Positions 10,684 through 57,009 of a stretch of 64,000 bases of DNA are shown in pieces. A model generated the notes under the pieces. The model made no database searches, was not told where the DNA came from, and saw only the letters and a list, made by a program, of their open reading frames with translations. Source of the stretch: Candidatus Micrarchaeia archaeon (GTDB lineage Archaea > Micrarchaeota > Micrarchaeia > Anstonellales > Bilamarchaeaceae); the NCBI GenBank assembly GCA_041653635.1, contig JBAZFC010000001.1, forward strand, positions 335,426 through 399,425, read 5' to 3'. The first letter of the stretch is position 1. Each line of letters opens with the position of its first letter. Made by a program: the position numbers and the translations under genes.

Positions 10684-10809
10684 TAGATAATGACTGCAAA
10701 AGTCTTTTTAAATACTCTTTTTTAACATAAATAAACACTCCTAATCTTTATAAAAGGTTTTATGGGTAAATAGGAATGCTCTTTGGTTAGAAGAGATGCA
10801 CGCCTCAGC

Positions 10810-10903
10810 GCGTAAGGAGTGCGTGCAAAGAATCCCTCTGGTGAAGTCGGGGGAGGTATGATTACCCTAAAGAGAGGAGGGGCGCTCCCCTCTTCTTCTT
10901 GGA
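10810..10903 (+). other. conserved ~95-nt leader element upstream of tRNA-Gly(GCC)
   Basis: Shares blocks GCGTAAGGAGTGCGTGCAAAG, TCCCTC-TG-GTGAAGT-GGG, GGGGCGCTCCCC with the region upstream of tRNA-Thr at the same spacing. Confidence 0.35.
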
Positions 10904-10974: not shown

Positions 10975-10996
10975 TTTGCTAATCAAATCGAGCAAG

Positions 10997-11380: not shown

Positions 11381-11430
11381 ACTGGCAATCAGATTTAATA
11401 AAACGTCGGGAGTAGAATAATAACCTCTTA

Positions 11431-11549
11431 GCCGAGGTCACATAACCCGGTAGTGTGCCGGTCTCGAACTGGTTCCAATCCAAAACGGATAGGAGCCGTG
11501 TGAAAACCGGTTCCGCAAGGAATTGCAGGTTCAAATCCTGCCCTCGGCG
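11431..11549 (+). tRNA. tRNA-Ser (anticodon CGA) with ~36-nt intron near position 37/38 and long variable arm
   Basis: Acceptor GCCGAGG/CCTCGGC, discriminator G, anticodon stem CCGGT...ACCGG interrupted by ~36 nt (11469/70..11504/05), variable arm TTCCGCAAGGAATT, T-arm GCAGG-TTCAAAT-CCTGC. Confidence 0.7.
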
Positions 11550-11588
11550 TTCTCTTCTATTTAATAAAATAATGGAAGAGAAAAGAAA

Positions 11589-11686
11589 TGCGTAAGGAGT
11601 ACGTGCAAAGCGTCCCTCCTGTGAAGTGGGAGGGGGTCAGAATGACACCTAAAAATGGGGGGAGCGCCCTCCCCGCGTTTTTGGTT
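11589..11686 (+). other. conserved ~95-nt leader element upstream of tRNA-Thr(CGT)
   Basis: Paralogous to 10810..10903; preceded by TATA-like TATTTAATAAAATAA. Confidence 0.35.
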
Positions 11687-11758
11687 GCCTCGGTAGCTCA
11701 GCGGTAGAGCGCTCGCCTCGTAAGCGAGAGGTCGGGGGTTCAATCCCCCTCCGGGGCT
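11687..11758 (+). tRNA. tRNA-Thr (anticodon CGT)
   Basis: Acceptor GCCTCGG/CCGGGGC (one G-U), D-arm TAGCTCAGCGGTAGAGC, anticodon loop CTCGTAA, T-loop TTCAATC. Confidence 0.8.
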
Positions 11759-11761
11759 TTT

Positions 11762-19975: not shown

Positions 19976-20159
19976 GAGGCGCGGTCTTTTAATTTTCTTC
20001 TCTTCGGAATAATGAATACTGCTGTTGAGTAGAGAGCAAGAAAGGGCTTGAGGTTTTTGGGCTCCTTTTTGCGCCGAGCGAACGCTGAGGCGTGAGCGAG
20101 GCAACCCAAAGGCAGAACAATCCGAGCCTGGGGCGAGGATTGTGATGACAAAAAGGAGA

Positions 20160-24061: not shown

Positions 24062-24077
24062 TGTAACCATGGTTACA
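24062..24077. promoter_or_regulatory. 16-bp perfect palindrome TGTAACCATGGTTACA (copy 1), 16 nt upstream of the thrS ATG
   Basis: Exact palindrome read directly; four copies in the window, all intergenic. Confidence 0.5.
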
Positions 24078-35978: not shown

Positions 35979-35996
35979 ATGTAACCATGGTTACAT
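35979..35996. promoter_or_regulatory. 18-bp perfect palindrome ATGTAACCATGGTTACAT (copy 2), ~50 nt upstream of the purF ATG
   Basis: Exact palindrome; about 20 nt upstream of a TATA-like TTTTTAAAAC element. Confidence 0.55.
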
Positions 35997-44853: not shown

Positions 44854-44869
44854 TGTAACCATGGTTACA
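44854..44869. promoter_or_regulatory. 16-bp perfect palindrome TGTAACCATGGTTACA (copy 3), between the Hef-like helicase start and the pepA 3' end
   Basis: Exact palindrome in an AT-rich intergenic region. Confidence 0.5.
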
Positions 44870-45132: not shown

Positions 45133-46617
45133 CTATGATTTTTTATTTTTTGCCCACTCCTTTAAGAAGGTCGCCAGCAGCCGGACCCCCTTGCCCGTAG
45201 GCCCCCTACAAAAATAACCAACACCACCCTCACTTTTCTCAACAGACGCCATATCTAAGTGGACCCAAGGGGTCTTTCCAACAAACTCCTTCAGGAAAGC
45301 CGCGGCGGTTATCGTGCTTGCCTCACCACTCTCACTCCCCATATTCTTCAAGTCAGTGTAATCTCCCTTCACCATTTCAGAATATTCCTTCCAAAGGGGC
45401 AGTTCCCACACCCGCTCCCCAGTTTCAAGCCCGCAGCCATACATCAGTTTCATCGCCCCGTGGTCCGTGCCCAACATCCCCATACCATGCCTTCCGAGCA
45501 CGACCATCATCGCGCCGGTGAGTGTAGCAGCATCAATCATCAAATCTGGTTTTGCCTCAGATGCGTAAGCGAGCGCATCCCCCAGAATCAACCTCCCCTC
45601 CGCGTCCGTATTGAGTACTTCAACACTCTTCCCATTATACATCCTCAACACGTCGCCAGGTTTGGTCGCGCTGCCGCTCGGCATGTTCTCGGTTGCTGGC
45701 ATCAGCACAGTTATCCTCAGAGGCAGCTTCATCTCAGCCACCGCCTTGAGCACCGACAGCACCACCACCGCGCCGGTCTTGTCAAACTTCATCGCGTCCA
45801 TGCCCTTGGACGGCTTTATGCTTATCCCACCACTATCAAACGTTATCCCCTTTCCCACCAGCGCGACGTGCGGCAATTTCTTCCCATCATTATATTTGAG
45901 CTCTACCATGACTGGCTCCCGTGCGCTTCCATACGAGACTCCGAGGATGCCGTTCATTCCCATCCTTTCAAGGTCTCGCCTGCCCAACACCCTGAATTTC
46001 AGCTTATACTCCACAGCCAGCTTGCGGGCGGTTTCGGCCAGCTTCCTGGGCGTCATGAAATTCGCCGGTTCCACATCCACCACCCGCGCATAATTCTGCG
46101 CATCAGTCAGTATCGCACCTTCCTTCACTTCAGCGCTAACATCCAGATTAGAGATTATCGTGAGCTTGCGTATCGCCTTCCCACCCCCATCCTCCTCACC
46201 TTTCTTCTTTTGCTTATATGGAGCCAGCCGCAGGCTCGCGAGCATTATCCCTTCGACCATCGCACGCGCCACATCGTGCTCCGAATGCCTGATTGCGCCG
46301 TAGAAATCCACCCACACCGAAACATCCGCCAGCTTCAGCCCCCTCGCCATCTTGACTATCCTGGCCCCGGAAAGCCGGAAATCCTCCAACTCCACATTTT
46401 TTTCCCTCCCGAAGCCGAGCAATAGCATCCTCTTGTACTTCCTGCCCCGTGCGGGCAGCAGGTAGAGCCTTCCCTTCTCTCCTGAAAAGTCCTTGCCTAC
46501 CCCAGCCTCTTCCAGCTGTGAGTGCACCCATTTCGGGACCTTGCCCCTGAAGCACGGAACCACGAGCATATCCGAGCCCACTCCACCAACATCCTTCCTC
46601 GCGAATTCAACATCCAT
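45133..46617 (-). CDS. pepA: leucyl aminopeptidase (M17 family)
   Basis: M17 signature NTDAEGRLILGDAL, metal ligand context. Confidence 0.85.
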   Translation of the reverse strand: MDVEFARKDVGGVGSDMLVVPCFRGKVPKWVHSQLEEAGVGKDFSGEKGRLYLLPARGRKYKRMLLLGFGREKNVELEDFRLSGARIVKMARGLKLADVSVWVDFYGAIRHSEHDVARAMVEGIMLASLRLAPYKQKKKGEEDGGGKAIRKLTIISNLDVSAEVKEGAILTDAQNYARVVDVEPANFMTPRKLAETARKLAVEYKLKFRVLGRRDLERMGMNGILGVSYGSAREPVMVELKYNDGKKLPHVALVGKGITFDSGGISIKPSKGMDAMKFDKTGAVVVLSVLKAVAEMKLPLRITVLMPATENMPSGSATKPGDVLRMYNGKSVEVLNTDAEGRLILGDALAYASEAKPDLMIDAATLTGAMMVVLGRHGMGMLGTDHGAMKLMYGCGLETGERVWELPLWKEYSEMVKGDYTDLKNMGSESGEASTITAAAFLKEFVGKTPWVHLDMASVEKSEGGVGYFCRGPTGKGVRLLATFLKEWAKNKKS

Positions 46618-46636
46618 CCGAACACCGCCGTTTTCT

Positions 46637-47206
46637 CTACCGCATCCTATTAATCTTCATAGGGTTGCCTTCAGCACGCGAGCCGGCAGGCACGTCCCCA
46701 TTCACGAACGTCATTGCCGAAACGACCGCGCCTTCCCCTATCTCAACGCCCGCGAGCACCGTCGCGTTAGCGCCCACCAGGGCGCCCCTCCCCACCACAG
46801 TCCTGCCGGTGCGAAGTTCATTCTGCAGGAACTCGTGCGCGAGTATCGTCGCGTTGTACCCTATTATGCATTCATCCCCAAGCTCAATCAGCTCCGGGTA
46901 AAAGACATCAAACATCGCCATGAGCCCAACCGCCGCGCCCTTCCCCACTTTCATGCCGGTCATGCGCAGCAGCGCCCTCTTCATCGCGAGCGATGGCGCG
47001 TACCTTGAGAGCTGCACCAACACAAAATTATACACGACCCTTATTGGATTGCGGAACCGCGTCCATTGGTTGAGTGAATTGCTTCCCGAGACTTTCAGGG
47101 ACTTCAGCTTCCTCAAATATCCACCTAGAATTTGGATTCTATATGCTCCACAGCATTCCTGAATATCCTCAGGCCCTCGCCAACCTTCGTGGCGCCGCGC
47201 GTCCAT
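46637..47206 (-). CDS. hexapeptide-repeat acetyltransferase (left-handed beta-helix family)
   Basis: Imperfect hexapeptide repeats (IGYNATIL, VGRGALVGANATVLAGVEIGEGAVV); the ATG at 47206 would overlap purQ by ~80 nt, so the start is uncertain. Confidence 0.55.
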   Translation of the reverse strand: MDARRHEGWRGPEDIQECCGAYRIQILGGYLRKLKSLKVSGSNSLNQWTRFRNPIRVVYNFVLVQLSRYAPSLAMKRALLRMTGMKVGKGAAVGLMAMFDVFYPELIELGDECIIGYNATILAHEFLQNELRTGRTVVGRGALVGANATVLAGVEIGEGAVVSAMTFVNGDVPAGSRAEGNPMKINRMR

Positions 47207-47901
47207 GCCGGATGGTTCGTGAAATGGTTGTACGCCTCCGGGTGCGGCATGAGCCCGAATATCCTGCCGCTCTCATCGCAGATGCCGGCAACACCGCCCA
47301 CCGAGCCGTTCGGGTTGTAAGGATATTCATCAATTTTGCCTTCCGGGCTGACATATTGGCATGCAATCGTGTTCTTGCCGACCATCTCTCCCAAGACTTC
47401 GCGCCCTGACGGTATGAACCTCCCCTCACCATGCCTCACTGGAAGGTCCATGTACGCTATCCCCTTAGTGAAGACGCACGGGCTCTTCTGGTTCATCGCC
47501 AGCCGTACCCACCTATCTTCAAACTTTCCAGACGCATTGTAAGTAAGAGTCACGCGCTGCGTGAAATCCGGCACAGGAAGCAGCCCCATCTTCACCAGCG
47601 CCTGGAAGCCGTTGCATATCCCCAGCACAAGCTTCCCACCCTTCACGAATTCTGAGATTTCCCCGCCAGCCCTGTGCCTCAACCTGTTCGCGAGAACCCT
47701 AGCCGAGCCGAGGTCGTCCCCGAACGAAAAGCCGCCGGGCAGGATGAGCATGTTGTAATCCCGGAGCAGCGACGGAGAGTCGGTCACTTCGCTCACATGC
47801 CTTATGTCTGCCTCGCCCCCCGAGGTGCGCATAGCATACGCGGTCTCATGGGGGCAGTTTATGCCGTACCCATCAAGCACGATGGCCTTCGCCTTCACCA
47901 T
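47125..47901 (-). CDS. purQ: phosphoribosylformylglycinamidine synthase, glutaminase subunit PurQ
   Basis: Class I glutamine amidotransferase pattern: LILPGGFSFGDD, nucleophile GICNGFQAL, LMPHPE near C-terminus; start MVKAKAIVLDG. Confidence 0.85.
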   Translation of the reverse strand: MVKAKAIVLDGYGINCPHETAYAMRTSGGEADIRHVSEVTDSPSLLRDYNMLILPGGFSFGDDLGSARVLANRLRHRAGGEISEFVKGGKLVLGICNGFQALVKMGLLPVPDFTQRVTLTYNASGKFEDRWVRLAMNQKSPCVFTKGIAYMDLPVRHGEGRFIPSGREVLGEMVGKNTIACQYVSPEGKIDEYPYNPNGSVGGVAGICDESGRIFGLMPHPEAYNHFTNHPAWTRGATKVGEGLRIFRNAVEHIESKF

Positions 47902-50876
47902 TTCAACCCCCCGCTCCACGCGTCGCGCAGCTCAAAGACGTCCTCGTTCACAAGTGCGTTGTCGCCGTTCCTCAGCACCACCCGCTTGTCCCCGCGCACC
48001 CTTCCCGCCTTCTTTGTTTTGGTGCCGAACATCATCTTCTCAAACTTGAACGCGTCCTTCTCGCGCACGCTCACAATGAACCTGCCCGCGCTTTCCGAGA
48101 ACAGGAGCGCCGCATCCTCGTCCGTGTCCTTGCTTATCAGCGAAAGGTCCATTTCCGCACCGACCTTGCCGCCCATCGCGCATTCCGCGAAAGCCGCCGC
48201 AAGCCCGCCATCTGAAACGTCGTGCACGCTCCGTATGGTGCCCCGTTCCATCGCCTTGGAAAGCGCGGCATAGAGTTCGGAGTTCTCCTTCACCCTGACC
48301 TTGGGCATCCCCGCGCCCACGCCGCCGTGCAGCTTGAAATATTCGCTCCCGCCCATCTCGTGGTGCGTCGTGCCGAGCACGTAAATGGCGTCCCCGACCT
48401 CCTTGAAGTCCGAGCTCGCTATCTTAGTAACATCCTCAACTTTCCCCACCACGGTGACCAGCAGCGTTGGGTTTATGGAGTGCTTGCTGTCCCCCGAATA
48501 ATAGTCATTCTTCATGCTGTCTTTTCCGGATATTATCGGGGTCCCGTATCCCACTGCCGCATCATGCATCCCCCTCGCCGCCCTCACGAGCTGCGCAAGC
48601 TTGAAGTCCCCATCGGGATTGCGCGGCCCCTTTATCGGGTCGGGCCAGCAGAAATTGTCCAGGCAGGCGAGATAGCCGAACTTCGCCCCGCACGCGATTG
48701 CGTTCCGCACGCCCTCATCCACGGCGTTCATCGCCATGTGGTATGCATCTTCCGTATATCTCGGGCAAACCCCGTGCGCGACCGCCAGCCCGCCGTTCAT
48801 TCCCAATATGGGCCTGAACACGCCGCCGTCCGAAGGGGCGTTCCCCTCCATGAGCGGCTTGAGCGCGCTCCCCCCCTGCACCTCGTGGTCGTACTGCCGT
48901 ATCACCCATTCCTTTGACGCGATGTTCGGGGACGCGAGCAGCGCCTTCAGCGCCTCGCCGTGCTGCATCAGCGGCCTGCCCGGCGGGATAGGCATCCTGT
49001 CCTTCCACACCGCCTTGAGATGCATCTGTGGGACGCCCTCGTGCAGGAATTGCATATCCACATACGCGACAGTGCTCTTTCCGTAGAGGATGTGGAACTT
49101 CCCGCTATCCGTGAATGTCCCCGCTATGCTTGCCTCCACACCATGCTTCTTCGCCAGCTTCTCTATTCCCGGCATCTTTTCCGCCGGCACCGCGAGCGTC
49201 ATCCTCTCCTGCGATTCCGAAAGCAGTATCTCCCACGGGTCCAGCCCGGGGTATTTCAGCGGGCACTTGTCCAGATGGACCTCGCAACCGCCGCTGAGCT
49301 GCGCCAGCTCGCCTATGCTTGAAGAAAGCCCGCCGGCCCCGTCGTCCGTGACCGCTTCGAACAGCCCGAGGTCCCTCGCCTCAAGCACCATGTCTATGAC
49401 TTTTTTCTGTGTTATCGGGTCGCCTATCTGCACCACGCTGCCAGCTATTCCCGTCGTAAGCTGCTGTGAAGAGAAAGTCGCCCCATGAATCCCATCCTTC
49501 CCTATTCTCCCACCGACCATCACCGCAAGGTACCCTGGTTCTATCTTCTTCCTCGCCGTCTCCCTGCCGCCTATCTCGTGCGGCATCATCCCCACCGTTC
49601 CCGCATACACGAGCGGCCTCGCCGTGTAGCATTTCTCAAACACGACCGAGCCATTAACCGTCGGAATCCCGACCATGTTCCCGCCGTGCTCTATACCCCT
49701 CACGACGCCCTTCGCAATCCTCTGCGGATGCAGGCATCCCTTTGGCACATCTTTCTCGTCCAGGTAGCCGAAACACAGCACGTTTATGTTCGCGATGGGC
49801 TTCGCGCCCATACCTGTCCCCAGCACGTCCCTGTTCACGCCGAGTATTCCAGTGAGCGCGCCCCCGTACGGGTCCAGCGCCGAAGGGGCGTTGTGCGTCT
49901 CCACCTTCACCGCGATGTCGTTCTCATGGTCAAACCGGATTATGCCGCCGTTGTCCTTGAACACCGAGACCACGTACGGCTTCCGCACCTCATCCGTTGC
50001 GGAGCGGATGTATGTCTTGAATATGGAATCTATCTTCTCTTCCCTCCCCTCAACTCCTTCACCTTCCTCCGAATAATCTATTTTGGCGTTGAATATCTTG
50101 TGCTTGCAGTGCTCGCTCCAGGACTGCGCCAGGGCCTCCAGCTCAACGTCGGTCGCGCCCTTGCCCAACCCCATTTTTTCCCGTTCCTTCCGCACCGCCG
50201 CCTTGGCGTAGTGCGCCTTTATCTCGCGCATCTCCTCCAGGGAAAGGGCGAGCGTCCGCTCGCGGCTGATTTTCACCAGCTCCTCGTCCGGAACCTGGAG
50301 GTCTATCTCCTCGGCGACCGGGGCATGGTCCAGCTCCACGCGCGGAATGTACGGCTCAAACGCGCCGCTCTCCGGCTCGTAAACCTTCCATGCCTGTATC
50401 ACTTCGTTCGCCAGCAGCTTCTTCGCTATTTCCGCCAGCACGGAATCGTCGTCAAAATCCGCCCTTATCGCATACACCCGCGACGTGTATGCCTCCACCT
50501 CCTTTCCGAGCACGTCCCTTACTCCCTCAACCGCGGTGTTCCCCTCGTTGTCGGTCATCCCGGGTAGGAAGCCCACCTCTATCCTCCAGTAATCAGGATA
50601 GAACGGCGCCTTGAATGAGAACTCCTCGGAAACGGCGTCGGCGAAAAGCTCCTTGCCCAGCTTCTCCATCTCCCCATCCGAAAGTTCGCCGTAGAAATTG
50701 TATGCGCGCACGATGGCGACGTCGGTTGGCTTCACGCCTGCGAGCTCTGCTATCTTCTTTGCCAGAGGGGCGGCGCCGGGGTCTCTAAGGTCGCCTTTTG
50801 GCCTTACCTCTATGCGCCGCGCACCAAGAGGAAGGGGGAGCCCCCCCTTCTCTTTAGGGTAATCATAACCCCCCAT
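47895..50876 (-). CDS. purL: phosphoribosylformylglycinamidine synthase PurL with N-terminal PurS-like extension (PurSL-type)
   Basis: 993 aa; tandem PurM-like/AIRS domains typical of PurL; N-terminal ~80 aa resembles PurS; immediately upstream of purQ. Confidence 0.8.
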   Translation of the reverse strand: MGGYDYPKEKGGLPLPLGARRIEVRPKGDLRDPGAAPLAKKIAELAGVKPTDVAIVRAYNFYGELSDGEMEKLGKELFADAVSEEFSFKAPFYPDYWRIEVGFLPGMTDNEGNTAVEGVRDVLGKEVEAYTSRVYAIRADFDDDSVLAEIAKKLLANEVIQAWKVYEPESGAFEPYIPRVELDHAPVAEEIDLQVPDEELVKISRERTLALSLEEMREIKAHYAKAAVRKEREKMGLGKGATDVELEALAQSWSEHCKHKIFNAKIDYSEEGEGVEGREEKIDSIFKTYIRSATDEVRKPYVVSVFKDNGGIIRFDHENDIAVKVETHNAPSALDPYGGALTGILGVNRDVLGTGMGAKPIANINVLCFGYLDEKDVPKGCLHPQRIAKGVVRGIEHGGNMVGIPTVNGSVVFEKCYTARPLVYAGTVGMMPHEIGGRETARKKIEPGYLAVMVGGRIGKDGIHGATFSSQQLTTGIAGSVVQIGDPITQKKVIDMVLEARDLGLFEAVTDDGAGGLSSSIGELAQLSGGCEVHLDKCPLKYPGLDPWEILLSESQERMTLAVPAEKMPGIEKLAKKHGVEASIAGTFTDSGKFHILYGKSTVAYVDMQFLHEGVPQMHLKAVWKDRMPIPPGRPLMQHGEALKALLASPNIASKEWVIRQYDHEVQGGSALKPLMEGNAPSDGGVFRPILGMNGGLAVAHGVCPRYTEDAYHMAMNAVDEGVRNAIACGAKFGYLACLDNFCWPDPIKGPRNPDGDFKLAQLVRAARGMHDAAVGYGTPIISGKDSMKNDYYSGDSKHSINPTLLVTVVGKVEDVTKIASSDFKEVGDAIYVLGTTHHEMGGSEYFKLHGGVGAGMPKVRVKENSELYAALSKAMERGTIRSVHDVSDGGLAAAFAECAMGGKVGAEMDLSLISKDTDEDAALLFSESAGRFIVSVREKDAFKFEKMMFGTKTKKAGRVRGDKRVVLRNGDNALVNEDVFELRDAWSGGLKW
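50839..50876. repeat. 38-nt exact repeat, copy A (covers the purL start codon and first 12 codons)
   Basis: AGCCCCCCCTTCTCTTTAGGGTAATCATAACCCCCCAT identical to 52610..52647. Confidence 0.8.
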
Positions 50877-50928
50877 AGCGCGTTCTTGTTGGGCAAAATA
50901 TATAACACTTATTTATTGTGCGGGTGGA

Positions 50929-50946
50929 ATGTAACCATGGTTACAT
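50929..50946. promoter_or_regulatory. 18-bp perfect palindrome ATGTAACCATGGTTACAT (copy 4), between divergent purL and the hypothetical gene at 50995
   Basis: Exact palindrome ~20 nt upstream of TATA-like elements on both strands. Confidence 0.55.
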
Positions 50947-50994
50947 AGTGTGTGAAACAGGGTTTTATTAAGATTTCATGGCATAATAAGAGCC

Positions 50995-51900
50995 ATGCAA
51001 TGCGCATTCCACCCAACACTGTTCCACACCGCTCCCGGGATTGGGCGCAGGCTGGGGTTCAGGGGGCGGATGAACATCCTCCAGGCGATGCGCCACTTCA
51101 AGGACAGCATCCCCACGCACGCCGAGTTTGACGAGCTGCTCCATCTCACCCCAGGCAAGACGCCGCGCGCCCTCACCACCAACGCGGGCACCGGCCTGAT
51201 GCACACCGGCACGTTCCTTGCCTATCCCGGCAAGGGCCGCACATTCCCCGGTCTCTTTGAGTACAAGGACCCCCAAACCAGCCTCTGGCTCTGCCTTGAC
51301 ACCAGGTTCTGCAGCGGCAGGTCCGGCATAGCGGTTATCGTGGAAGGGGATTTCACCCTGCATCACAGCGGAAGGAGGATCCAGATTGTCCCCCAGAACA
51401 AGCCCGCGGTGCTTGAGCAATTCCCCCAGTTCCCCAGCTGGTACGGGTACCACCTTTGCAGGAGGCTGCCCGTGCTGAAAGACGGGGTGGAGGACGAATC
51501 CGGGTTCCACCCCGGCCGTTTTTTGCAGCGCATAGAAGGCCCGTGGCTGGGCGCCCTGGCCCGCACCATGAACAGCGGAAACTCAGACGAGAACTACGTC
51601 CATGCATACGGCGGCCCTTCCCTGGACCGCGCGGTGATCGTCTGGGAGTACTACGCCACGGATGCCAAGCCGGAAAACCCAGCGAACCGCAGGGTATTCA
51701 TAATGCCCGGCGATGGCAGGCCCAAAATCATAACCCCAGACCATGCCGTCCGGGGCCCACCCGCAGAATACCTGAAGGCAAAGAACAGGTGGGACCAGGA
51801 CATGATACTCCATGGCATGGACCCGGCGCACTGCCCCCATCCGGGCCCGCCGCCTATGCCCGAACAATACTTGCCTTCCCCGAAGGCAGGCAAGGCATGA
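50995..51900 (+). CDS. hypothetical protein (~300 aa)
   Basis: ORF with balanced composition, TATA-like TTTTATTAAG ~25 nt upstream; antisense ORF 50968..51510 judged a shadow frame; start may be Met 26. Confidence 0.4.
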   Translation: MQCAFHPTLFHTAPGIGRRLGFRGRMNILQAMRHFKDSIPTHAEFDELLHLTPGKTPRALTTNAGTGLMHTGTFLAYPGKGRTFPGLFEYKDPQTSLWLCLDTRFCSGRSGIAVIVEGDFTLHHSGRRIQIVPQNKPAVLEQFPQFPSWYGYHLCRRLPVLKDGVEDESGFHPGRFLQRIEGPWLGALARTMNSGNSDENYVHAYGGPSLDRAVIVWEYYATDAKPENPANRRVFIMPGDGRPKIITPDHAVRGPPAEYLKAKNRWDQDMILHGMDPAHCPHPGPPPMPEQYLPSPKAGKA

Positions 51901-52606
51901 TTTCCGAATCAGGCACGCCCAGCAGTTCCCCAAGCTTTTCCGCCGCCTCCTTCTTCTCCATCTTTCCCGGCACAATCAGCACTTTCTTCCTTATCCACTT
52001 CGCATCTTCAGCGCCAGCGGAAACTCTTCCGTTCTCCTCAATCCCGATTGCGAGCATCAATTTAGTGTTCTTGAGCCACTCCCTCTCGCCCGAAATCGCA
52101 AACCCCCCTGCCCCGACAAATCCGCCCGTCGCATGTTTAGACAGTTGCCCCTTCTTCACCGCATAAACATCAACGCTCGCCATCCTCTTTCCCCACGCCT
52201 TGGAGTACGAGGCCGCAATCGCCGCCGCTTCTTTCTTCTCCTCTTCCGAAGCCCCAACCCCATTTTTCAGAATCGTCGCAGCCGCCCCGCGTATGTCCGC
52301 ATGGAAGAACAAATCCCCATCCTCCATCTTCCCCGCGAGCTTGTCGTTCTGCTGCGCGGTCTTCCCAGCCAGAATGAGCTTTCCCGCATTCGTAAAACTC
52401 CAGTGGAACTCCTCAAACCACTCCCTCTTCCTCGCGACCTTGACCGCCCTCGCCTTCTTTTTCGCCGCCGCGCCCATCCTCTTCTGCGTTTCAGCCATCG
52501 CTACGCGCACGCCCTCCGCCTTCTCCCGCGCCTTCTTTGCCTCCTCATAGTAGCGCGCCGAGTTCTCGTGTATGCTCTTTCCTAGTTGGATGCTTACCTT
52601 AACCAC
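51854..52606 (-). CDS. NFACT-R/DUF814-like protein (tentative)
   Basis: GDLFFHADIRGAAATIL resembles the DUF814 core motif; GTG start per the ORF track; the 38-nt repeat containing an out-of-frame ATG lies immediately upstream. Confidence 0.45.
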   Translation of the reverse strand: MVKVSIQLGKSIHENSARYYEEAKKAREKAEGVRVAMAETQKRMGAAAKKKARAVKVARKREWFEEFHWSFTNAGKLILAGKTAQQNDKLAGKMEDGDLFFHADIRGAAATILKNGVGASEEEKKEAAAIAASYSKAWGKRMASVDVYAVKKGQLSKHATGGFVGAGGFAISGEREWLKNTKLMLAIGIEENGRVSAGAEDAKWIRKKVLIVPGKMEKKEAAEKLGELLGVPDSEIMPCLPSGKASIVRA

Positions 52607-52609
52607 ATT

Positions 52610-52647
52610 AGCCCCCCCTTCTCTTTAGGGTAATCATAACCCCCCAT
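52610..52647. repeat. 38-nt exact repeat, copy B (immediately upstream of the DUF814-like gene)
   Basis: Identical to 50839..50876; on the minus strand it would encode MGGYDYPKEKGGL then run out of frame with the downstream ORF. Confidence 0.8.
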
Positions 52648-52744
52648 CCATTTATTTTTCTACCGATGTATGCCTCCGCCACAATTTTTGATTTTCAAAC
52701 CCCTCCGAAAAAGCTTTATATAGCTTCCTTCCGATTAAGAGCCC

Positions 52745-52990
52745 ATGGCGTACATTGAAACTCTCCTCTCAGACATCCTGGTTACGCTCAAGTCCGTTGG
52801 CGTGTCAGTCTCTCTCCTCCTGATAATCATAGGGGGCCTGGTCTACGGGCTTGCGCAGCTGCAGCCCGGTGACACAAGGGGCAAATGGCAGAACATGGCA
52901 ATCGGCATTTTTGTGGGCGGTGTCGTGATTGCTGCCATAATTGGGGCCGCAGAGCTCATCCAGCTCGTCTCATCCAACCTCCTCACGTGA
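52745..52990 (+). CDS. small two-TM membrane protein (VirB2/CedA1-type pilin-like candidate)
   Basis: 81 aa with two hydrophobic helices separated by a short polar loop (QLQPGDTRGKWQN); first gene of a tight membrane operon. Confidence 0.5.
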   Translation: MAYIETLLSDILVTLKSVGVSVSLLLIIIGGLVYGLAQLQPGDTRGKWQNMAIGIFVGGVVIAAIIGAAELIQLVSSNLLT

Positions 52991-53002
52991 GGGAGTGAAC
53001 AG

Positions 53003-53932
53003 ATGGCCGCGGACCTGACGCTTGCCGGCATCGTAGTAAGCCTATCCATAATACTCTCAGGCCTGCTCATAGGCCTCGGCAAGACCATCGGCTCCAAGCG
53101 CGTTGAGCACTTCGGCGAGGAAGAGCTGGTCCAGTCCGCGATAAACGCCGCCCTCGTGGGCGCCTACGCCGCCATCATCTCTATTGCCAGCGAGGTGAGC
53201 AAGGGAATCGCGGAGGGGCAGACATGCGTCGCCGGCGACGCGCTTGAGAACCTCCAGTGCATCTTCTCCAATTTATCCGCCGACATCTTCCAGCTCCTCA
53301 CCCAGGCAATCAACCTCCACCAGATAGTCTCCTATTACCAGTCCATAACGCTGGAGTTCGCAACCTTCTCCATCCAGCCGATGTCCCACCTCTCATCCAT
53401 CCAGTCCATACTCGGAGGGCAGATTCTCACGCTGCAGGCGCTCCTCACGCTCGCCCAGCTCCAGGTGCAGATACTCGCCTTCTTTGCCCCGCAGCTCCTC
53501 ACCTTCTTCCTCCCGCTCGGCCTCATCTTCCGCTCCTTCTTCTCCACGCGCAAGCTCGGCGGCTTCCTCATCGCGCTCTCCATCGGAATATATCTCTTCT
53601 ACCCCGCGTTCATCCTCATCTTCCCGGCGCCCCAGTTCAACGTCACGGCCGCCAACCTCACCAACCTCACCAACACCTCCCTTTACACCACGGTCCCGAT
53701 ACTTGACCTGAACGACAACTACGCCATCGCCAGCAGGTTCGACAACATGACCACCGGCGACTTCACCGGAGACCTCACGCTCGCCACCCAGCAGATAAGC
53801 GCCTCCATCGCCTCGCTCTCCATGTTCGTGATGCTCGCGCCCCTGTTTTCGCTCCTCATAACAGTCATATTCATAAAGGAGGTCACCGACATATTCGGCG
53901 GTGAATTCTTCTTCGCGGTGAGTTCCCTATGA
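53003..53932 (+). CDS. polytopic membrane protein (VirB6/CedA-like channel candidate)
   Basis: 309 aa, about five hydrophobic helices, extracytoplasmic region with several N-x-S/T sequons; 4-nt overlap with the next gene. Confidence 0.5.
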   Translation: MAADLTLAGIVVSLSIILSGLLIGLGKTIGSKRVEHFGEEELVQSAINAALVGAYAAIISIASEVSKGIAEGQTCVAGDALENLQCIFSNLSADIFQLLTQAINLHQIVSYYQSITLEFATFSIQPMSHLSSIQSILGGQILTLQALLTLAQLQVQILAFFAPQLLTFFLPLGLIFRSFFSTRKLGGFLIALSIGIYLFYPAFILIFPAPQFNVTAANLTNLTNTSLYTTVPILDLNDNYAIASRFDNMTTGDFTGDLTLATQQISASIASLSMFVMLAPLFSLLITVIFIKEVTDIFGGEFFFAVSSL

Positions 53933-54708
53933 TACAGAACCGAATGGTAACCATGATGGCGCTTGCTGGCGGGCTTGCAGCCCTTGTGATGGCGATAGTG
54001 CTGTGGAGCCCGATATTCTCCGCGCTCGCCGGCTTCTTTTTCGCCCTCTCCCTGATGGTCTGGAAATACGGCTACCTCCTGATTCCGTACATAACAAAAG
54101 CCGGACGCATAGTAGAAATCCGCGGCGGCTACGAAATCCCGCCCACCCGCGACTGCATCATAAAAAAATCGGGCAACGGCTTCTACTCCACGAAATTCCT
54201 TGAAATCCGCTATTATGAGAGCACGGTGGACAAGAGCACGCAGGACCGCTCGTCCATGCTCGCCTCGTTTGAGAAGGCGCTCGCCTCGCTCAAGAACACA
54301 GTTAAAATCTCGCTCCTAGTCTCGGAAGTTGACCTCACAAAAGAAATAGACGAGCTGAAGACGCGCAGGAGCTCCGCCGAGAACAAGCGCAGGAAACTCC
54401 CGCCCAACAGCGAGGAGCTCGTCCGCCTTGACCGCGAAATCGCGATGTACAACCGCCAGCTTGAGCGCATCACCCGCGGCGACCGCCCGCTCGTGCTCAC
54501 GTCCTTCGTCTCCACCACCGCATACGGCGTCACTAGGGAGGAGGCGCTCTCCAAGGTGCGCAGGCAGGCGAAGGAGGTCAAGACCATCGTATCCTCCACC
54601 CTTGGCGCGGACGTCGTTGACCTGTTTGACCTTGACATGATAAGGTGCTTCGAATGGGAGTTCTTCCTCCCGCCGGAGGTGGAACAGCTTAAGGATGAGG
54701 TATTCTAG
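53929..54708 (+). CDS. membrane-anchored protein (N-terminal TM hairpin + soluble domain; possible VirB3/VirB4-N-like part)
   Basis: 259 aa; two N-terminal TM helices then charged soluble domain; ends with TAG immediately followed in the same frame by the ATG of the ATPase gene. Confidence 0.5.
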   Translation: MIQNRMVTMMALAGGLAALVMAIVLWSPIFSALAGFFFALSLMVWKYGYLLIPYITKAGRIVEIRGGYEIPPTRDCIIKKSGNGFYSTKFLEIRYYESTVDKSTQDRSSMLASFEKALASLKNTVKISLLVSEVDLTKEIDELKTRRSSAENKRRKLPPNSEELVRLDREIAMYNRQLERITRGDRPLVLTSFVSTTAYGVTREEALSKVRRQAKEVKTIVSSTLGADVVDLFDLDMIRCFEWEFFLPPEVEQLKDEVF

Positions 54709-56145
54709 ATGGATGTGCAGAAGCTCAACGTCTCCGACCTCTCAAAGCGCCTCTTCCTGGTGCATCCCCCAGAGCCCCGCCCCGACTCCCTCATCTCCTC
54801 CGTGAATGAGGGCATATACATCGGCAAGACGCGCTGGCTCAACGTCCCCGTCTTCTGGAACTTCAAGAAGCTGATTAACCCGCACGTCGCCATCGTCGGC
54901 ATAACCGGCTCGGGCAAATCCTACCTCGTGAAAACCTTCCTCACCCGCGCCTCGCTCATCTGGAACTCCAACGCAATAATCCTTGACTGGGTTGGCGAAT
55001 ACGACAAATGGGTGAAGCAGGCTGGGGGCACGGTCCTCCACCTTGGGGAGGAACACCTCAACCTCATGGACCTCGCGGGGCTCACGCCCTCCGAGCGCAC
55101 GAAGCAGATAATGTCCGCCCTGGAAATCCTTCTTGACCTGCACAACTTCCCAGCGGAGCGCAACGACATTGAGGAGGCGATAGAGGACACGTACGCGGGC
55201 GTGAAGAACCCCACCCTCAGCAACGTCGTTGAAATGCTGGAGAAAGGAAGGAAGAAATCCGCGGCGCGCCTGCTCAAGCACTTCACCACCCAGGGCAGCG
55301 ACTTCTTCGCGAAGCCCTCCACGCTCGCGATGGAGAAGCTCACCAACTCCGGGCTCATGTGCATAGACCTGCACTCCCTCCCAACCGAGGAGATGCGCTC
55401 GCTAGCCGGCCTCACAATCCTGCAGTTCCTCAAGGAAAAAATGCGCAGGGAGGAGATGAAGGAGGAGAAGGGCGTCCGCCTCTTCGTCGTGGTTGATGAG
55501 GCGTGGAAGATTGCGAGCGACGAAAGGAGCGACGTCATCACGATAGTGAGGGAGGGGAGGAAATACAACTTCGCCCTCATAGTCGCGTCCCAAAACCCGA
55601 CGGACATGCACAAGACAATCTTCAGCAACGTCGGCACGATGTTCATCCTGCGCCTCATCCTGAGGGAGTTCAAAGACTACGTCCGCCAGTCCCTCAGCTA
55701 CTCGGATTACATAGATTCTGAGATTTCCAAGTTCGGCGTCGGGGACGCCGCAATGAACATGATATTCTCAAAACGCACCAGCGGCTCGCACACCTTCCTG
55801 CTCAACAAGATTGACGGGGAGGAGCCGCTTTTCATTTATGCGCTGGAGGTTGATGGCATGTCTGTTGAGAAGGAAAGGGAACAGTTCTGCAATATGCTCT
55901 ACGAGCTCGGGCTCACGGACGAGCAGATAGGGCTCGTGAAGAACGAGTTTGAGAGGAATGACGGCACTATGGACGCCACCGCGTTCGTGTCGCTGCTGGA
56001 AAAGTTCGGCTATTCGCCCTCGTCAATAATGGGCTTCCTGCGCCAGCTGGAGGTGGACGAGAAGGACATAGTTGAGATATTCTCCCTTGCGAGGAGGAGG
56101 AAGGCCACCAAGGGGCTGGTTGACCTCACCCTTACGGAGGAATAA
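54709..56145 (+). CDS. P-loop ATPase of the VirB4/TraC/CedB/HerA-like (DUF87-type) class
   Basis: Walker A AIVGITGSGKSYLV, Walker B RLFVVVDEAWKIA, downstream IVASQNP. Confidence 0.7.
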   Translation: MDVQKLNVSDLSKRLFLVHPPEPRPDSLISSVNEGIYIGKTRWLNVPVFWNFKKLINPHVAIVGITGSGKSYLVKTFLTRASLIWNSNAIILDWVGEYDKWVKQAGGTVLHLGEEHLNLMDLAGLTPSERTKQIMSALEILLDLHNFPAERNDIEEAIEDTYAGVKNPTLSNVVEMLEKGRKKSAARLLKHFTTQGSDFFAKPSTLAMEKLTNSGLMCIDLHSLPTEEMRSLAGLTILQFLKEKMRREEMKEEKGVRLFVVVDEAWKIASDERSDVITIVREGRKYNFALIVASQNPTDMHKTIFSNVGTMFILRLILREFKDYVRQSLSYSDYIDSEISKFGVGDAAMNMIFSKRTSGSHTFLLNKIDGEEPLFIYALEVDGMSVEKEREQFCNMLYELGLTDEQIGLVKNEFERNDGTMDATAFVSLLEKFGYSPSSIMGFLRQLEVDEKDIVEIFSLARRRKATKGLVDLTLTEE

Positions 56146-56147
56146 TT

Positions 56148-56843
56148 ATGGAAGAGATAATCCGCATAAGCACGAAAAGGAAAAGGCCGCTTAAGCCGCT
56201 GCTCCAGACGCTCGGCTCATTCGGGTTCACGAAGGTGGATTACTCCGACGAGGCCCTCATAATAGAGAAGGTGGAGTCCGAGGACCTGAACGGCAAGCCA
56301 TACCTCTATTACCATCTTGAGCTGCTCAAGGGCGCAATAGTATTCAAATACACCGTGCCGACGCTCGAAAACAAAACGTCGCGCATGCTGGAGATGGGCC
56401 TCCTGCTCATGAACCTCTTCCAGCTCCTCACCGCGTATTACGACGTGCCGGTGCAGGCCGCCTACCCGCTCTATTTCCCGCTGCTCAAATCCCTCTCCGA
56501 GTCCATGGACAAGGAGAAGCTGGAAACGTATTCCGAGCTCAAGGACCTCAGGCAGAAGCACAACTCCCTGGAGCGCAAGTACAACGACCTTGTCCAGGCG
56601 AGCGCGCAGAACGCGCGCATCCTCGTTGAATATGAGAGGAAGAACGAAGACCTCGGCGACAGGGTGAAGAAGCTGGAGGGCGTTGGCGACATGGAGATGC
56701 AGGGCCAGCTATTTGAATGGGTGCGCACCCACGACGGCGAGATAGATGTGCTGGAGTTCTCCCGCCTCAACAACATCGCCGTGGGCAGGGTGGAAGAGGG
56801 CCTTGACGCCCTCATAAAGAACGGGTTCATAAGGAAAAGGTAG
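56148..56843 (+). CDS. hypothetical coiled-coil protein with C-terminal winged-helix-like domain
   Basis: 231 aa; central heptad-like charged region, C-terminal VLEFSRLNNIAVGRVEEGLDALIKNGFI; last gene of the membrane operon (2-nt gap from ATPase). Confidence 0.45.
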   Translation: MEEIIRISTKRKRPLKPLLQTLGSFGFTKVDYSDEALIIEKVESEDLNGKPYLYYHLELLKGAIVFKYTVPTLENKTSRMLEMGLLLMNLFQLLTAYYDVPVQAAYPLYFPLLKSLSESMDKEKLETYSELKDLRQKHNSLERKYNDLVQASAQNARILVEYERKNEDLGDRVKKLEGVGDMEMQGQLFEWVRTHDGEIDVLEFSRLNNIAVGRVEEGLDALIKNGFIRKR

Positions 56844-57009
56844 GGATTGCAATGCCGCCAAAAGAGAAGGAGAAGAAATCCAGCGGGTACCGCTTTGAGA
56901 TGCTCAGGAGGTTCTCCCGCCCGCGCTCCTACATAATCACGCGGCAGTACAAGATGGACATGCTTTCAATCCTTTCCAAGACGATTTCAACCATAATGGG
57001 TGGCAAGCA

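What the first reader, a model, noticed from the sequence alone, without database searches (positions are those of the whole stretch)
50839..52647. 38-nt exact repeat: purL start codon region duplicated upstream of the DUF814-like gene
AGCCCCCCCTTCTCTTTAGGGTAATCATAACCCCCCAT occurs at 50839..50876 and 52610..52647. On the minus strand copy A is the first 38 nt of purL (ATG GGG GGT TAT GAT TAC CCT AAA GAG AAG GGG GGG CT, MGGYDYPKEKGGL). Copy B sits immediately 5' of the GTG-initiated DUF814-like ORF; there its ATG opens a 17-codon frame (MGGYDYPKEKGGLMWLR-stop) that is offset by one frame from the downstream ORF. Options: a recent duplication or gene conversion, a shared translation-initiation/leader element, a short upstream ORF, or a frameshifted true N-terminus of the downstream gene.
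Basis: seen in the sequence. Interest (0 to 1): 0.6.

Follow-up and report, generated by a model that had tools for sequence, protein, structure and literature searches.

The report
Dispersed hairpin repeat hits two genes
The 38-base repeat is real: it is two copies of a small, hairpin-forming repeat that occurs many times in this tiny archaeon and its relatives, mostly pressed against tRNA genes. Here it has landed in the first codons of purL and just ahead of a neighbouring gene without breaking either one.

Summary
The exact 38-nt repeat is confirmed and is not an assembly artefact. It is not a private duplication of the purL start. Both copies belong to a dispersed, structured repeat of about 53-57 nt: G-run, conserved 19-mer UAUGAUUACCCUAAAGAGA, 14-bp G/C hairpin, CUCUUGG. 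The family is multi-copy in this Micrarchaeota (DPANN) genome, with 4 copies in the window. The exact 19-mer hit 85 stretches of public DNA, about 80 of them Micrarchaeota-type element copies.

Relatives keep the same gene order but lack both copies. purL gained 42 nt in frame straight after its native ATGGGGGG, adding 14 residues. The NFACT-R (DUF814) gene gained 76 nt between its promoter and its start codon. That insertion holds a copy cut off in the hairpin loop and is flanked by TGTGG, which duplicates the GTG start.

NFACT-R homologues all start at the GTG position, so the frameshifted-N-terminus idea fails. In the collected DNA, 25 of 61 tRNAs have a copy ending within 8 nt of their 5' end. 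The hairpin shows compensatory changes and many G-U pairs, which points to the sense strand.

No Rfam family, viral contig or paper matched. How the element spreads is unknown. A mirror symmetry of the purine arms, compatible with a triple helix, remains unexplained.

The parts
50839..50876 (-). 38-nt repeat copy A: the first 38 nt of purL
   Evidence: Exact match. The translation begins MGGYDYPKEKGGL.
50824..50876 (-). Complete short-form element (53 nt) inside purL codons 1-18: G-run, P2 hairpin GGUUA-UGAU-UACCC, P3 hairpin AAGAGAAGGGGG/CCCCCUUC(C)UCUU, tail UGG
   Evidence: Covariance model R1 scores it at 73.7 bits, E = 1.6e-22, full length. The predicted fold is -25.2 kcal/mol.
50827..50868 (-). 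Net 42-nt in-frame insertion in purL relative to three relatives; the boundaries are uncertain by a few nt
   Evidence: Alignment A6: relatives read ATGGGGGG(A/C)(A/G)A(C/T)GC...ATAGAGG with nothing in between. Their purL is 979 aa against 993 aa here.
47895..50876 (-). purL (PurS-fused FGAM synthase II), 993 aa, followed by purQ
   Evidence: Pfam AIRS, AIRS_C, FGAR-AT_linker and PurS.
52610..52647 (-). 38-nt repeat copy B: an element copy cut off in the P3 hairpin loop, with the 3' arm missing
   Evidence: Exact match. Model R1 scores it at 26.7 bits with the P3 region deleted.
52603..52678 (-). 76-nt lineage-specific insertion in the NFACT-R leader. It consists of 31 nt of unknown origin (CGGAGGCATACATCGGTAGAAAAATAAATGG), copy B, AA, and the second copy of the 5-nt direct repeat TGTGG. 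The first TGTGG lies at 52679-52683.
   Evidence: Alignment A5 against L002, L003 and L004; the two GTGs are 76 nt apart. The 31-nt piece has no match in the window or in the fetched loci, other than the same-organism contig L039.
51854..52606 (-). NFACT-R (DUF814) gene, 250 aa, GTG start
   Evidence: Pfam NFACT-R_1, E = 4.3e-23. There are 349 homologues, and the close ones are 248-264 aa with the same N-terminus.
52608..52682 (-). Candidate uORF that starts at the ancestral-position GTG: VAEAYIGRKINGWGVMITLKRRGG-stop. Its TAA ends 1 nt before the working GTG.
   Evidence: Translation. Translation in the cell is inferred, not shown.
52594..52647 (-).
10811..10902 (+). Long-form element copy ending 1 nt before tRNA-Gly(GCC) at 10904-10974. 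It contains the exact 19-mer at 10857-10875.
   Evidence: model R1 scores 10848-10902 at 72 bits; fold.
11590..11684 (+). Long-form element of the second class (spacer UCAGAAUGACACCUAAAAAU) ending 2 nt before tRNA-Thr(CGU) at 11687-11758
   Evidence: model R1 scores 11629-11684 at 45.8 bits. The fold is -40.2 kcal/mol, z = -2.74.
50995..51900 (+). Conserved 301-aa ORF of unknown function between the two repeat copies; it converges on NFACT-R and overlaps it by 47 nt
   Evidence: No Pfam hit. A counterpart of 248-304 aa sits at the same position in the relatives.

Best explanation
The two 38-mers are the shared 5' part of two copies of a small dispersed structured repeat. The repeat is multi-copy in this Micrarchaeota genome and its relatives.

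The unit is about 53-57 nt. It consists of:
- a purine (G) run;
- a 19-nt core, UAUGAUUACCCUAAAGAGA, which holds a small hairpin P2 and the foot of the main stem;
- a 14-bp G/C-rich hairpin P3 whose top and loop vary;
- a fixed tail, CUCUUGG.

A long form carries a further module of about 45 nt on the 5' side (GCGUAAGGAG...GUGAAGU).

Shown: both copies at this locus are insertions specific to this lineage, in an otherwise conserved gene neighbourhood.
- In purL, a complete unit sits directly after the native ATGGGGGG. It adds 42 nt with no stop codon, so PurL gains 14 N-terminal residues ahead of its PurS-like domain.
- At NFACT-R, a 76-nt insertion lies between the promoter and the start codon. 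It carries a copy truncated in the hairpin loop. It is flanked by the direct repeat TGTGG, so the GTG start was duplicated and a start codon stays next to the ORF.

Inferred:
- The element acts on the sense strand as a stable RNA hairpin. Its home context is the transcribed 5' leader, or a co-transcribed small RNA, of particular tRNA genes.
- From that context the 3' domain gets copied to other sites close to transcription starts. The step is unknown. At purL, the identity between the element's 5' end and the native ATGGGGGG suggests joining guided by microhomology.
- Copies persist only where expression survives. At purL the insertion is in frame. At NFACT-R the start codon is duplicated, and a 24-codon uORF from the old start ends 1 nt before the new one, which would allow reinitiation.
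- The two local copies share a very recent common source, because they are identical even in loop bases that differ between other copies.
For: Repeat and ORFs.

Ancestral gene order (81-aa gene, NFACT-R, unknown ORF, purL, purQ, hexapeptide protein, M17 peptidase) in relatives at 91%, 85% and 82% NFACT-R identity.

Clean insertions of 42 nt and 76 nt relative to those relatives.

A third exact 19-mer upstream of tRNA-Gly and a diverged copy upstream of tRNA-Thr.

Exact 19-mer hits: 39 metagenome stretches and 46 stretches in GTDB species genomes. Almost all are Micrarchaeota MAGs, with up to about 16 hits per MAG. Nine stretches repeat contigs or the window itself.

Model R1 finds exactly 4 copies in the window. 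It finds further copies without the exact 19-mer in other loci.

P3 hairpin: 94.3% of cells paired in 56 distinct copies. Four pairs show changes on both sides (GC to AU in 16, 11, 8 and 4 sequences). One pair is G-U in 24 of 56 copies, which would be an A-C mismatch on the other strand.

tRNA linkage: 25 of 61 tRNAs in the collected DNA have a copy ending within 8 nt upstream on the same strand, and 6 have one abutting the 3' end on the opposite strand. The same isoacceptors recur across MAGs.

Presence/absence differences: purL and NFACT-R here against relatives. Conversely, MAG258 (L078) has a copy directly upstream of a tRNA that matches the intron-containing tRNA at 11431, and the window has none there.

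Independent assemblies support all junctions.
Against: - No transposase, recombinase or reverse transcriptase was linked to the family.
- The ends of the unit are not inverted repeats of each other.
- A direct-repeat footprint is seen at one site only (TGTGG at NFACT-R), and none is evident at purL.
- 31 nt of the NFACT-R insertion have no identified source.
- The 19-mer is very strongly conserved, and copies are kept upstream of the same tRNA isoacceptors in different MAGs. This fits a host function as well as, or better than, selfish mobility.
- There are no transcript data, so RNA-level action, a leaderless purL mRNA and use of the uORF are inferences from sequence geometry.
- Loci were collected through an exact 19-mer. 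Copy counts, the tRNA fraction and the apparent conservation of the core are therefore biased.
Confidence: 0.8

Rival explanations
1. Purely local event. The first 38 nt of purL, after it had acquired the element, were copied 1.77 kb away into the NFACT-R leader by template switching or gene conversion. The family context would be irrelevant for copy B.
For: Copies A and B are identical over 38 nt. The identity covers the ATG prefix and the loop-proximal GGGGGGGCT, which differ between other copies. The two copies are only 1771 nt apart.
Against: ATG-GGGGGG prefixes are common in the family: TTGATGGGGGG, GTGATGGGGGG and others occur in about 12 independent copies. The ATG therefore need not come from purL. 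The copy in L055, from the closest relative (STC_97), differs from copy A by a single base, so a shared master copy elsewhere is equally possible. The 31 nt upstream of copy B do not come from the purL region.
Confidence: 0.35
2. The shared sequence is a functional cis-regulatory leader that couples expression of purL and NFACT-R, for example a common binding site for a protein or small RNA at the 5' ends of both mRNAs.
For: Both copies lie at the 5' end of their gene in the sense orientation. The family as a whole sits at the 5' ends of transcription units.
Against: Relatives with the same two genes lack the sequence at both sites. Copy B lacks the hairpin that is the conserved feature of the family. 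The other copies sit by unrelated genes and tRNAs, with no purine or ribosome-rescue theme.
Confidence: 0.1
3. The point of copy B is a short upstream ORF, either the reader's 17-codon frame or the 24-codon frame from the ancestral GTG. It would control NFACT-R translation.
For: Both frames are open. The 24-codon frame starts at the start codon that keeps the ancestral promoter spacing and ends 1 nt before the working GTG, a geometry typical of termination-reinitiation. A rough estimate puts the chance of an open 24-codon frame ending exactly there at 1-2%.
Against: The uORFs are absent from all relatives, so they are a by-product of the insertion and not a conserved device. There is no evidence of translation. 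Other copies of the family are not associated with such frames.
Confidence: 0.15
4. Assembly artefact or alternative topology. The true chromosome would join the NFACT-R upstream flank directly to purL through one repeat copy, and the 1771-bp unit would be a separate circle or a mis-join.
For: A k=31 de Bruijn graph cannot tell the two topologies apart. The Logan contig ends inside the repeat on both sides.
Against: JGI contig L023 reads through copy A from the purL body into the intergenic region and on through NFACT-R. Contig L039 reads from the upstream flank through copy B into the 2 nt specific to the NFACT-R side. The same gene order is found in four or more related assemblies that have no repeat at all.
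Confidence: 0.03
5. The repeats are attachment sites or a long target duplication flanking a recently inserted 1.77-kb cassette (NFACT-R plus the unknown ORF).
For: The repeats are direct and flank a discrete segment.
Against: The segment and its neighbours are in the same order and orientation in relatives that lack the repeats. There is no integrase in the segment.
Confidence: 0.01
6. Copy B is the frameshifted true N-terminus of the NFACT-R protein.
For: An ATG lies 41 nt upstream of the GTG, in another frame.
Against: There are 349 homologues. The close ones are 248-264 aa and begin MKV(S/A)IELGKSIHEN, aligned with the GTG start. The upstream sequence is an insertion that relatives lack.
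Confidence: 0.01

Closest known systems
Bacterial REP/BIME-type repetitive extragenic palindromes and terminator-like repeats such as pneumococcal SPRITE (named in review PMC10969869)
   Same: Short (tens of nt) G/C-rich imperfect palindromes. They are multi-copy, mostly intergenic and strand-specific, and differ in presence between related genomes. The second class here even ends in hairpin plus UUUUU, like a terminator.
   Different: This family is archaeal (DPANN). It has no GTAG-type 5' tetranucleotide and no RAYT-type transposase has been identified. It has a long invariant single-stranded core, and its 3' end abuts tRNA gene ends with near-nucleotide precision.
Rickettsia palindromic elements (RPEs), which insert in frame into protein-coding genes (PMC10969869, sections 4.1-4.2)
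   Same: The purL copy is an in-frame insertion of a palindromic repeat that adds a peptide segment to an essential metabolic enzyme without disrupting it.
   Different: RPEs are about 150 bp and many of them are intragenic. Here only the purL copy, out of about 90 examined, is convincingly inside a gene, and it lies at the extreme N-terminus.
Correia elements and other MITEs that carry promoters or sit immediately upstream of genes (PMC10969869)
   Same: A small non-autonomous repeat concentrated just upstream of genes, able to reshape 5' leaders.
   Different: The termini are not inverted repeats, there is no consistent target duplication, and no partner transposase is known. The TAAAGAGA stretch is unlikely to be the tRNA promoter, because its distance to the tRNA varies from 23 to 119 nt while the distance from the element's 3' end to the tRNA stays within 8 nt.
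MALAT1/MEN-beta 3' end: a triple helix directly upstream of a tRNA-like structure that RNase P cleaves (PMC8457004, PMC4836648)
   Same: As a working analogy only. A structured element with triple-helix potential ends exactly where RNase P would cut a downstream tRNA, so the cut would create a 3' end buried in a helix.
   Different: The MALAT1 triplex is U-A-U and has been solved experimentally. Here the triplex would be a purine-motif G-G-C/A-A-U type, inferred from mirror symmetry alone. No RNA data exist and there is no homology.

Membership tests
MITE (miniature inverted-repeat transposable element) | Terminal inverted repeats at the two ends of the unit | tested here: not met
   The ends are (N)GGGGGGU... 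and ...CUCUUGG. The only inverted repeat is the internal P3 hairpin.
MITE (miniature inverted-repeat transposable element) | Target-site duplication of fixed length flanking each copy | tested here: inconclusive
   A 5-nt TGTGG flanks the NFACT-R insertion. None is evident at purL. Only these two filled/empty pairs could be aligned to the base.
MITE (miniature inverted-repeat transposable element) | Multi-copy, non-coding, present or absent between related genomes | tested here: met
MITE (miniature inverted-repeat transposable element) | A cognate autonomous element or transposase with matching ends | not tested
   No whole genome was available. The fetched loci were not screened for transposases.
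REP / RAYT system | Imperfect palindrome of 20-40 nt preceded by a conserved GTAG-like tetranucleotide, plus a RAYT gene in the genome | tested here: inconclusive
   A palindrome is present. No GTAG precedes it: the stem foot is preceded by CCCUAAAG. Presence of a RAYT gene was not tested.
IS200/IS605-derived palindrome-associated elements | Subterminal hairpins, no terminal inverted repeats, no target duplication, insertion 3' of a fixed tetra- or pentanucleotide | tested here: inconclusive
   The hairpin and the lack of inverted termini fit. The bases 5' of the G-run are heterogeneous (TTGAT, AAATC, AATGC, GCTAT and others), so no single target emerges. This lead comes from recalled knowledge of IS608/ISDra2, not from a test.
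Any Rfam RNA family | Covariance-model score at or above the family's gathering threshold | tested here: not met
   Only tRNAs pass in the whole window. Nothing relevant appears at E up to 10 over 10600-11800.
Box C/D sRNA | C box RUGAUGA and D box CUGA forming a K-turn | tested here: not met
   The nearest strings are AUGAUUA and GUGAAGU, there is no CUGA, and no Rfam C/D family hit was found.
Integrated element bounded by att direct repeats | The segment between the repeats is absent from empty-site relatives, and an integrase is nearby | tested here: not met
   The segment is ancestral and in conserved order. No integrase domain was found.
Intrinsic-terminator-like repeat | G/C hairpin directly followed by an oligo-U run | tested here: inconclusive
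   The second class ends ...GCGUUUUUGG. The main class ends UUCCUCUUGG, with no U5 run.

The most novel reading that the evidence does not exclude
The family is a previously undescribed tRNA-linked structured RNA of DPANN archaea. The long form would be transcribed from its own promoter. RNase P cleavage at the abutting tRNA would create its 3' end. The 5' purine arm would fold back onto the P3 hairpin as a purine-motif triple helix (G-G-C, A-A-U, U-A-U) that buries that 3' end, an archaeal analogue of the MALAT1 triple helix with mascRNA.

The mirror symmetry that suggests this holds in the same register in five sequence subfamilies. The same fold, as RNA or single-stranded DNA, might also guide copying of the 3' domain to new sites next to purine runs such as the ATGGGGGG of purL.
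Probability: 0.12. Interest if true: 0.85.

Novelty: new variant of a known kind. Interest (0 to 1): 0.55.

Why it matters
For annotation: short exact repeats at gene starts in DPANN genomes can be copies of this element. They can lengthen predicted proteins (PurL by 14 residues), create spurious small ORFs and break short-read assemblies. Two public assemblies end at or within a few tens of nt of copy B.

For biology: genomes of about 1 Mb are expected to be stripped of repeats. This lineage nevertheless keeps several to more than a dozen copies per MAG of a structured unit of about 55 nt, welded to the ends of particular tRNA genes.

If the element is a transcribed leader or small RNA, it points to an unstudied layer of tRNA expression or RNA stabilisation in Micrarchaeota. 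If it is mobile, it is a new kind of small archaeal repeat with tRNA-end targeting.

The locus also shows two distinct ways in which a gene survives an insertion at its start: staying in frame, and duplicating the start codon.

The two direct copies 1.77 kb apart are a ready substrate for deletion of NFACT-R and the purL promoter.

Tried and rejected
- Rfam at gathering threshold over the window, and at E up to 10 over the tRNA cluster: only tRNAs.
- Viral contigs scanned with both core motifs: nothing.
- Literature searches on Micrarchaeota or DPANN with repeats, MITEs, tRNA leaders and RNase P: no description of this element.
- Exact-protein look-up of the 301-aa ORF: not on record.
- BLAST of the 31-nt filler and the NFACT-R upstream region against the window and all fetched loci: no source found.
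- In-frame insertions in other genes: 13 of 90 copies lie in open frames of at least 50 codons on both sides. Their translations look like spurious or antisense frames, and several overlap tRNA contexts, so they were rejected.
- TAAAGAGA as the tRNA TATA box: rejected as the main role. Its distance to the tRNA varies (23-32 nt, and 67-119 nt in variants with extra modules) while the 3' end of the element keeps its distance.
- A degenerate leader before tRNA-Gly(UCC) at 20160 has an AAAAAGGAGA stretch right next to the tRNA. The model did not detect this, and the resemblance is by eye.
- Alternative Watson-Crick pairing of the 5' purine arm with the P3 pyrimidine arm: possible only through many G-U pairs in two subfamilies, so not supported.
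- P1 pairing of the purine arm with an upstream C-rich stretch: predicted in the two window long forms, but the C-rich stretch is missing in many long forms.

Full report
**1. Observation**

The 38-mer AGCCCCCCCTTCTCTTTAGGGTAATCATAACCCCCCAT is present exactly at 50839-50876 and 52610-52647. There are no further matches at up to 3 mismatches, and none is expected by chance.

On the minus strand, copy A is the start of a 993-aa ORF (47895-50876). This ORF has AIRS, AIRS_C, FGAR-AT linker and PurS domains, so it is purL, and a GATase_5 gene (purQ) follows it. Copy B ends 3 nt before the GTG at 52606 of a 250-aa NFACT-R/DUF814 ORF. The ATG of copy B opens MGGYDYPKEKGGLMWLR-stop in another frame.

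**2. Not an artefact**

Three independent assemblies of the same organism support the structure.
- JGI contig L023 equals window 46240-52586 (99.97% identity) and reads through copy A with both flanks.
- JGI contig L039 equals 52608-57996 (100% identity). It contains copy B, its upstream flank and the two bases (AA) that distinguish the B junction from the A junction.
- Logan contig L001 (k=31) equals 50848-52639 with one SNP. It stops 29-30 nt inside the repeat at each end, as a de Bruijn graph does at a 38-nt repeat.

**3. Organism and neighbourhood**

The NFACT-R protein has 349 homologues. The nearest are labelled Candidatus Micrarchaeota or "ainarchaeum". One 100%-identical protein is recorded on a 1.03-Mb JGI contig. 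An intron-containing tRNA fits an archaeon.

In relatives at 91% (L002, MAG STC_97), 85% (L003) and 82% (L004-L007) NFACT-R identity, the gene order is the same: 81-aa gene, NFACT-R, an unknown convergent ORF of 248-304 aa, purL, purQ, hexapeptide protein, M17 peptidase. The 1.77 kb between the repeats is therefore ancestral. It is not an inserted cassette.

**4. Both copies are lineage-specific insertions**

*purL.* In the relatives purL is 979 aa and begins ATGGGGGG(A/C)(A/G)A(C/T)GC...ATAGAGG, giving MGG(N/D)A(R/C)RIEVRP. In the window, 42 nt lie between ATGGGGGG and the conserved continuation, giving MGGYDYPKEKGGLPLPLGARRIEVRP. The leading ATGGGGGG of copy A is therefore native purL sequence.

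A TATA box, TTATATAT, is centred about 25 nt upstream of the ATG. By the usual archaeal promoter geometry (my knowledge), the purL mRNA should be leaderless, which would put the element at its extreme 5' end. There is no in-frame ATG, GTG or TTG between the ATG and the conserved RIEV, so the 14 extra residues are presumably translated. This is an inference.

*NFACT-R.* In the relatives the start codon lies 19-32 nt after the shared divergent TATA (AGCTATATAAAGCT). The window has 76 extra nt:
- 31 nt with no match in the window or in the fetched loci, other than the same-organism contig L039;
- the 38-mer;
- AA;
- all flanked by the direct repeat TGTGG, which contains the GTG start.

The upstream GTG (52682) keeps the ancestral promoter spacing. 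It opens a 24-codon frame whose TAA ends 1 nt before the working GTG. That geometry would allow termination-reinitiation, but this is inferred and untested.

NFACT-R homologues all begin MKV(S/A)IELGKSIHEN at the position of the working GTG. This rules out a frameshifted N-terminus.

**5. The 38-mer belongs to a family**

A 19-mer inside it, TATGATTACCCTAAAGAGA, recurs at 10857-10875, 28 nt before tRNA-Gly(GCC). The similarity extends through a G/C hairpin to ...CTTCTTGG, one base before the tRNA. A diverged version lies in the same place before tRNA-Thr(CGU).

Scanning public collections for the exact 19-mer gave:
- 39 stretches in JGI metagenomes;
- 46 stretches in GTDB species genomes;
- none in viral contigs.

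Six hits are chance matches. Three are in bacterial MAGs, and three metagenome hits lack the rest of the element. Nine stretches repeat contigs or the window itself. The remainder are Micrarchaeota, with several hits per MAG: about 16 in DeMMO3_23, 9 in MAG258, 7 in USDE_metabat.57 and 3 in STC_97.

A covariance model of the 3' domain (R1) finds exactly four copies in the 64-kb window:

| Location | Coordinates | Score |
|---|---|---|
| purL | 50824-50876 | 73.7 bits |
| before tRNA-Gly | 10848-10902 | 72 bits |
| before tRNA-Thr | 11629-11684 | 45.8 bits |
| NFACT-R leader (hairpin deleted) | 52603-52647 | 26.7 bits |

The model also finds copies without the exact 19-mer in other loci.

**6. 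Anatomy**

*Short form (about 53-57 nt).* It consists of a purine run, P2 (GGUA-UGAU-UACC), CU, P3 (AAAGAGA + G-rich arm / loop / C-rich arm + UC(C)UCUU) and GG.

*Long form.* It adds GCGUAAGGAGUACGNGCAAAG...GUGAAGU on the 5' side. An A/T-rich box often lies 20-25 nt upstream of that module. This was seen by eye. At tRNA-Thr in the window, TTTAATAAAA is centred about 25 nt before GCGUAAGG.

*Support for P3.* In 56 distinct copies, 94.3% of cells pair. Four pairs change on both sides (GC to AU in 16, 11, 8 and 4 sequences). No shuffle reaches the observed covariation score, and sliding the partners lowers pairing to 54-74%. The alignment was fitted to the model and the copies are related, so these numbers lean towards the structure.

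One pair is G-U in 24 of 56 copies, and others are occasionally G-U. These would be A-C mismatches on the opposite strand. The constraint therefore acts on the strand that is sense to the downstream gene.

*Support for P2.* It is weaker (79.5% of cells paired). However, the second class replaces GGGUA-UGAU-UACCC with GGGUC-AGAAU-GACCC, which keeps the pairing.

*Variants.* Some copies carry an extra structured hairpin inserted exactly after the 19-mer. Others carry a module of about 50 nt in the P3 loop.

**7. Context**

Of 61 tRNAs in all collected DNA, 25 have a copy ending within 8 nt upstream on the same strand. Six have a copy whose 3' end abuts the tRNA 3' end on the opposite strand.

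The same isoacceptors recur across MAGs. For the upstream type these are Thr-CGU, Pro-UGG, Gly-GCC, Gly-UCC and Ser-GCU; for the opposite-strand type, mainly Leu tRNAs. Some positions are thus retained over long periods, even though the subfamily found at a given tRNA differs between genomes.

This sample is biased because it was collected through the 19-mer. Even so, the chance of landing within 35 nt of a tRNA 5' end in a 1-Mb genome is about 0.2%. The calculation assumes about 45 tRNAs.

All four window copies are in the sense orientation at the 5' end of a gene. Apart from purL, no copy is convincingly inside a gene.

**8. Mirror arms (unexplained)**

In every subfamily, the purine run left of the spacer, read leftwards, equals the purine arm of P3, read rightwards. 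The register is the same each time.

| Subfamily | Left arm | Right arm |
|---|---|---|
| a | GGGGGGU | AGGGGGG |
| b | GGGGGGAGG | GGAGGGGG |
| c | GGAAGGGGGG | GGGGGGAA |
| second class, variant 1 | GGGAGGGGG | GGGGGAG |
| second class, variant 2 | GGGGGAGGG | GGGAGGG |

Pairing each left arm with its own right arm gives 39 matches out of 45. This is the unique best of 120 permutations; the mean is 31.2, and a direct-repeat reading gives 29.

Mirror purine arms next to a purine-pyrimidine hairpin are what an intramolecular purine-motif triple helix would require. That statement rests on my knowledge of triplex rules. The pattern conflicts with the last 2-3 G of the arm also being drawn into P2. 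It is imperfect within subfamily c and does not hold in register in the variants with inserted modules. I report it as an observation with one candidate reading.

**9. Interpretation**

What is there is settled with good confidence: two recent insertions of one dispersed structured repeat at the 5' ends of two adjacent genes, each in a form that leaves the gene expressible.

How the family works is inferred. Three things favour a transcribed 5' leader or co-transcribed small RNA as the home context:
- the strand-specific hairpin;
- the fixed abutment to tRNA ends, with variable internal length;
- the promoter-like boxes before long forms.

Presence/absence differences, nested variants and truncated copies show that the 3' domain gets copied to new sites. 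The enzyme is unknown. The element's 5' end coincides with the native ATGGGGGG of purL, which hints at microhomology-guided joining.

Copies A and B are identical even in loop bases. A one-base-different copy exists in the nearest relative (L055). A and B therefore derive from each other or from one master copy.

**10. Known relatives and novelty**

By behaviour, the nearest known things are bacterial REP/BIME and SPRITE-type palindromic repeats, Rickettsia palindromic elements (for the in-frame purL case) and promoter-proximal MITEs such as Correia (review PMC10969869). The family fails the MITE criterion of terminal inverted repeats and lacks the REP tetranucleotide. It matches no Rfam family, and no paper describing it was found.

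I class it as a new variant of a known kind. A minority reading is a tRNA-linked, triplex-capped RNA, analogous to the MALAT1 3' end (PMC8457004, PMC4836648). That would be considerably more interesting if experiments bore it out.

Noticed in passing
window 24062-24077, 35980-35995, 44854-44869, 50930-50945: The perfect 16-bp palindrome TGTAACCATGGTTACA occurs four times exactly (0.05 expected), always in intergenic DNA. The copy about 55 nt upstream of the purL ATG is conserved, as TGTAACCAT(A/G)GTTACA, upstream of purL in three relatives. It may be a transcription-factor operator or a second dispersed repeat.
   Followed up: partly
window 52608-52682 (minus strand): The ancestral-position GTG of NFACT-R now opens a 24-codon uORF (VAEAYIGRKINGWGVMITLKRRGG) whose stop ends 1 nt before the working GTG at 52606. 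The 5-nt repeat TGTGG flanking the insertion is what duplicated the start codon.
   Followed up: yes
loci L009, L016, L024, L036, L037, L040, L043, L051, L052, L054, L058, L070, L072, L086, L088, L091 (element copies): Some copies carry an extra hairpin module inserted exactly after the 19-mer. It has a conserved loop GAU(A/G)UAU and a stem that changes with full compensation (UUUGCCUUU..AAAGGCAAA against UUCGGUC..GAGCGAA). Other copies (L042, L045, L049, L066, L081, L085) carry a module of about 50 nt in the P3 loop. This could be nested insertion or an expansion segment.
   Followed up: partly
window 10811-11758: A tRNA cluster, Gly(GCC), a small Cys-rich ORF, an intron-containing tRNA (11431-11549) and Thr(CGU), has long-form elements before the first and last tRNA only. 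ARAGORN's default run missed the intron-containing tRNA, but Rfam found it. In MAG258 (L078), the matching intron-containing tRNA has a short-form element directly upstream.
   Followed up: partly
window 20090-20159: The sequence upstream of tRNA-Gly(UCC) looks, by eye, like a degenerate long form (GCGTGAGCGAGGCAACCCAAAGG...GGGGCGAGGATTGTGATGACAAAAAGGAGA) that lacks the P3 hairpin and runs straight into the tRNA. The model did not detect it. In other MAGs the same isoacceptor has an intact element.
   Followed up: no
window 50995-51900 (plus strand): A 301-aa ORF with no Pfam domain keeps its position in relatives (248-304 aa). It converges on NFACT-R and overlaps its 3' end by 47 nt. Its exact sequence is not on record in the contig index.
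   Followed up: no
loci L012, L019 (952-1004), L027/L084: Composite arrangements occur upstream of one tRNA. The 5' part of a second-class element is followed by ...CAAUUGAU and then a complete main-class short form. This suggests insertion of one element into another, or recombination between classes.
   Followed up: no
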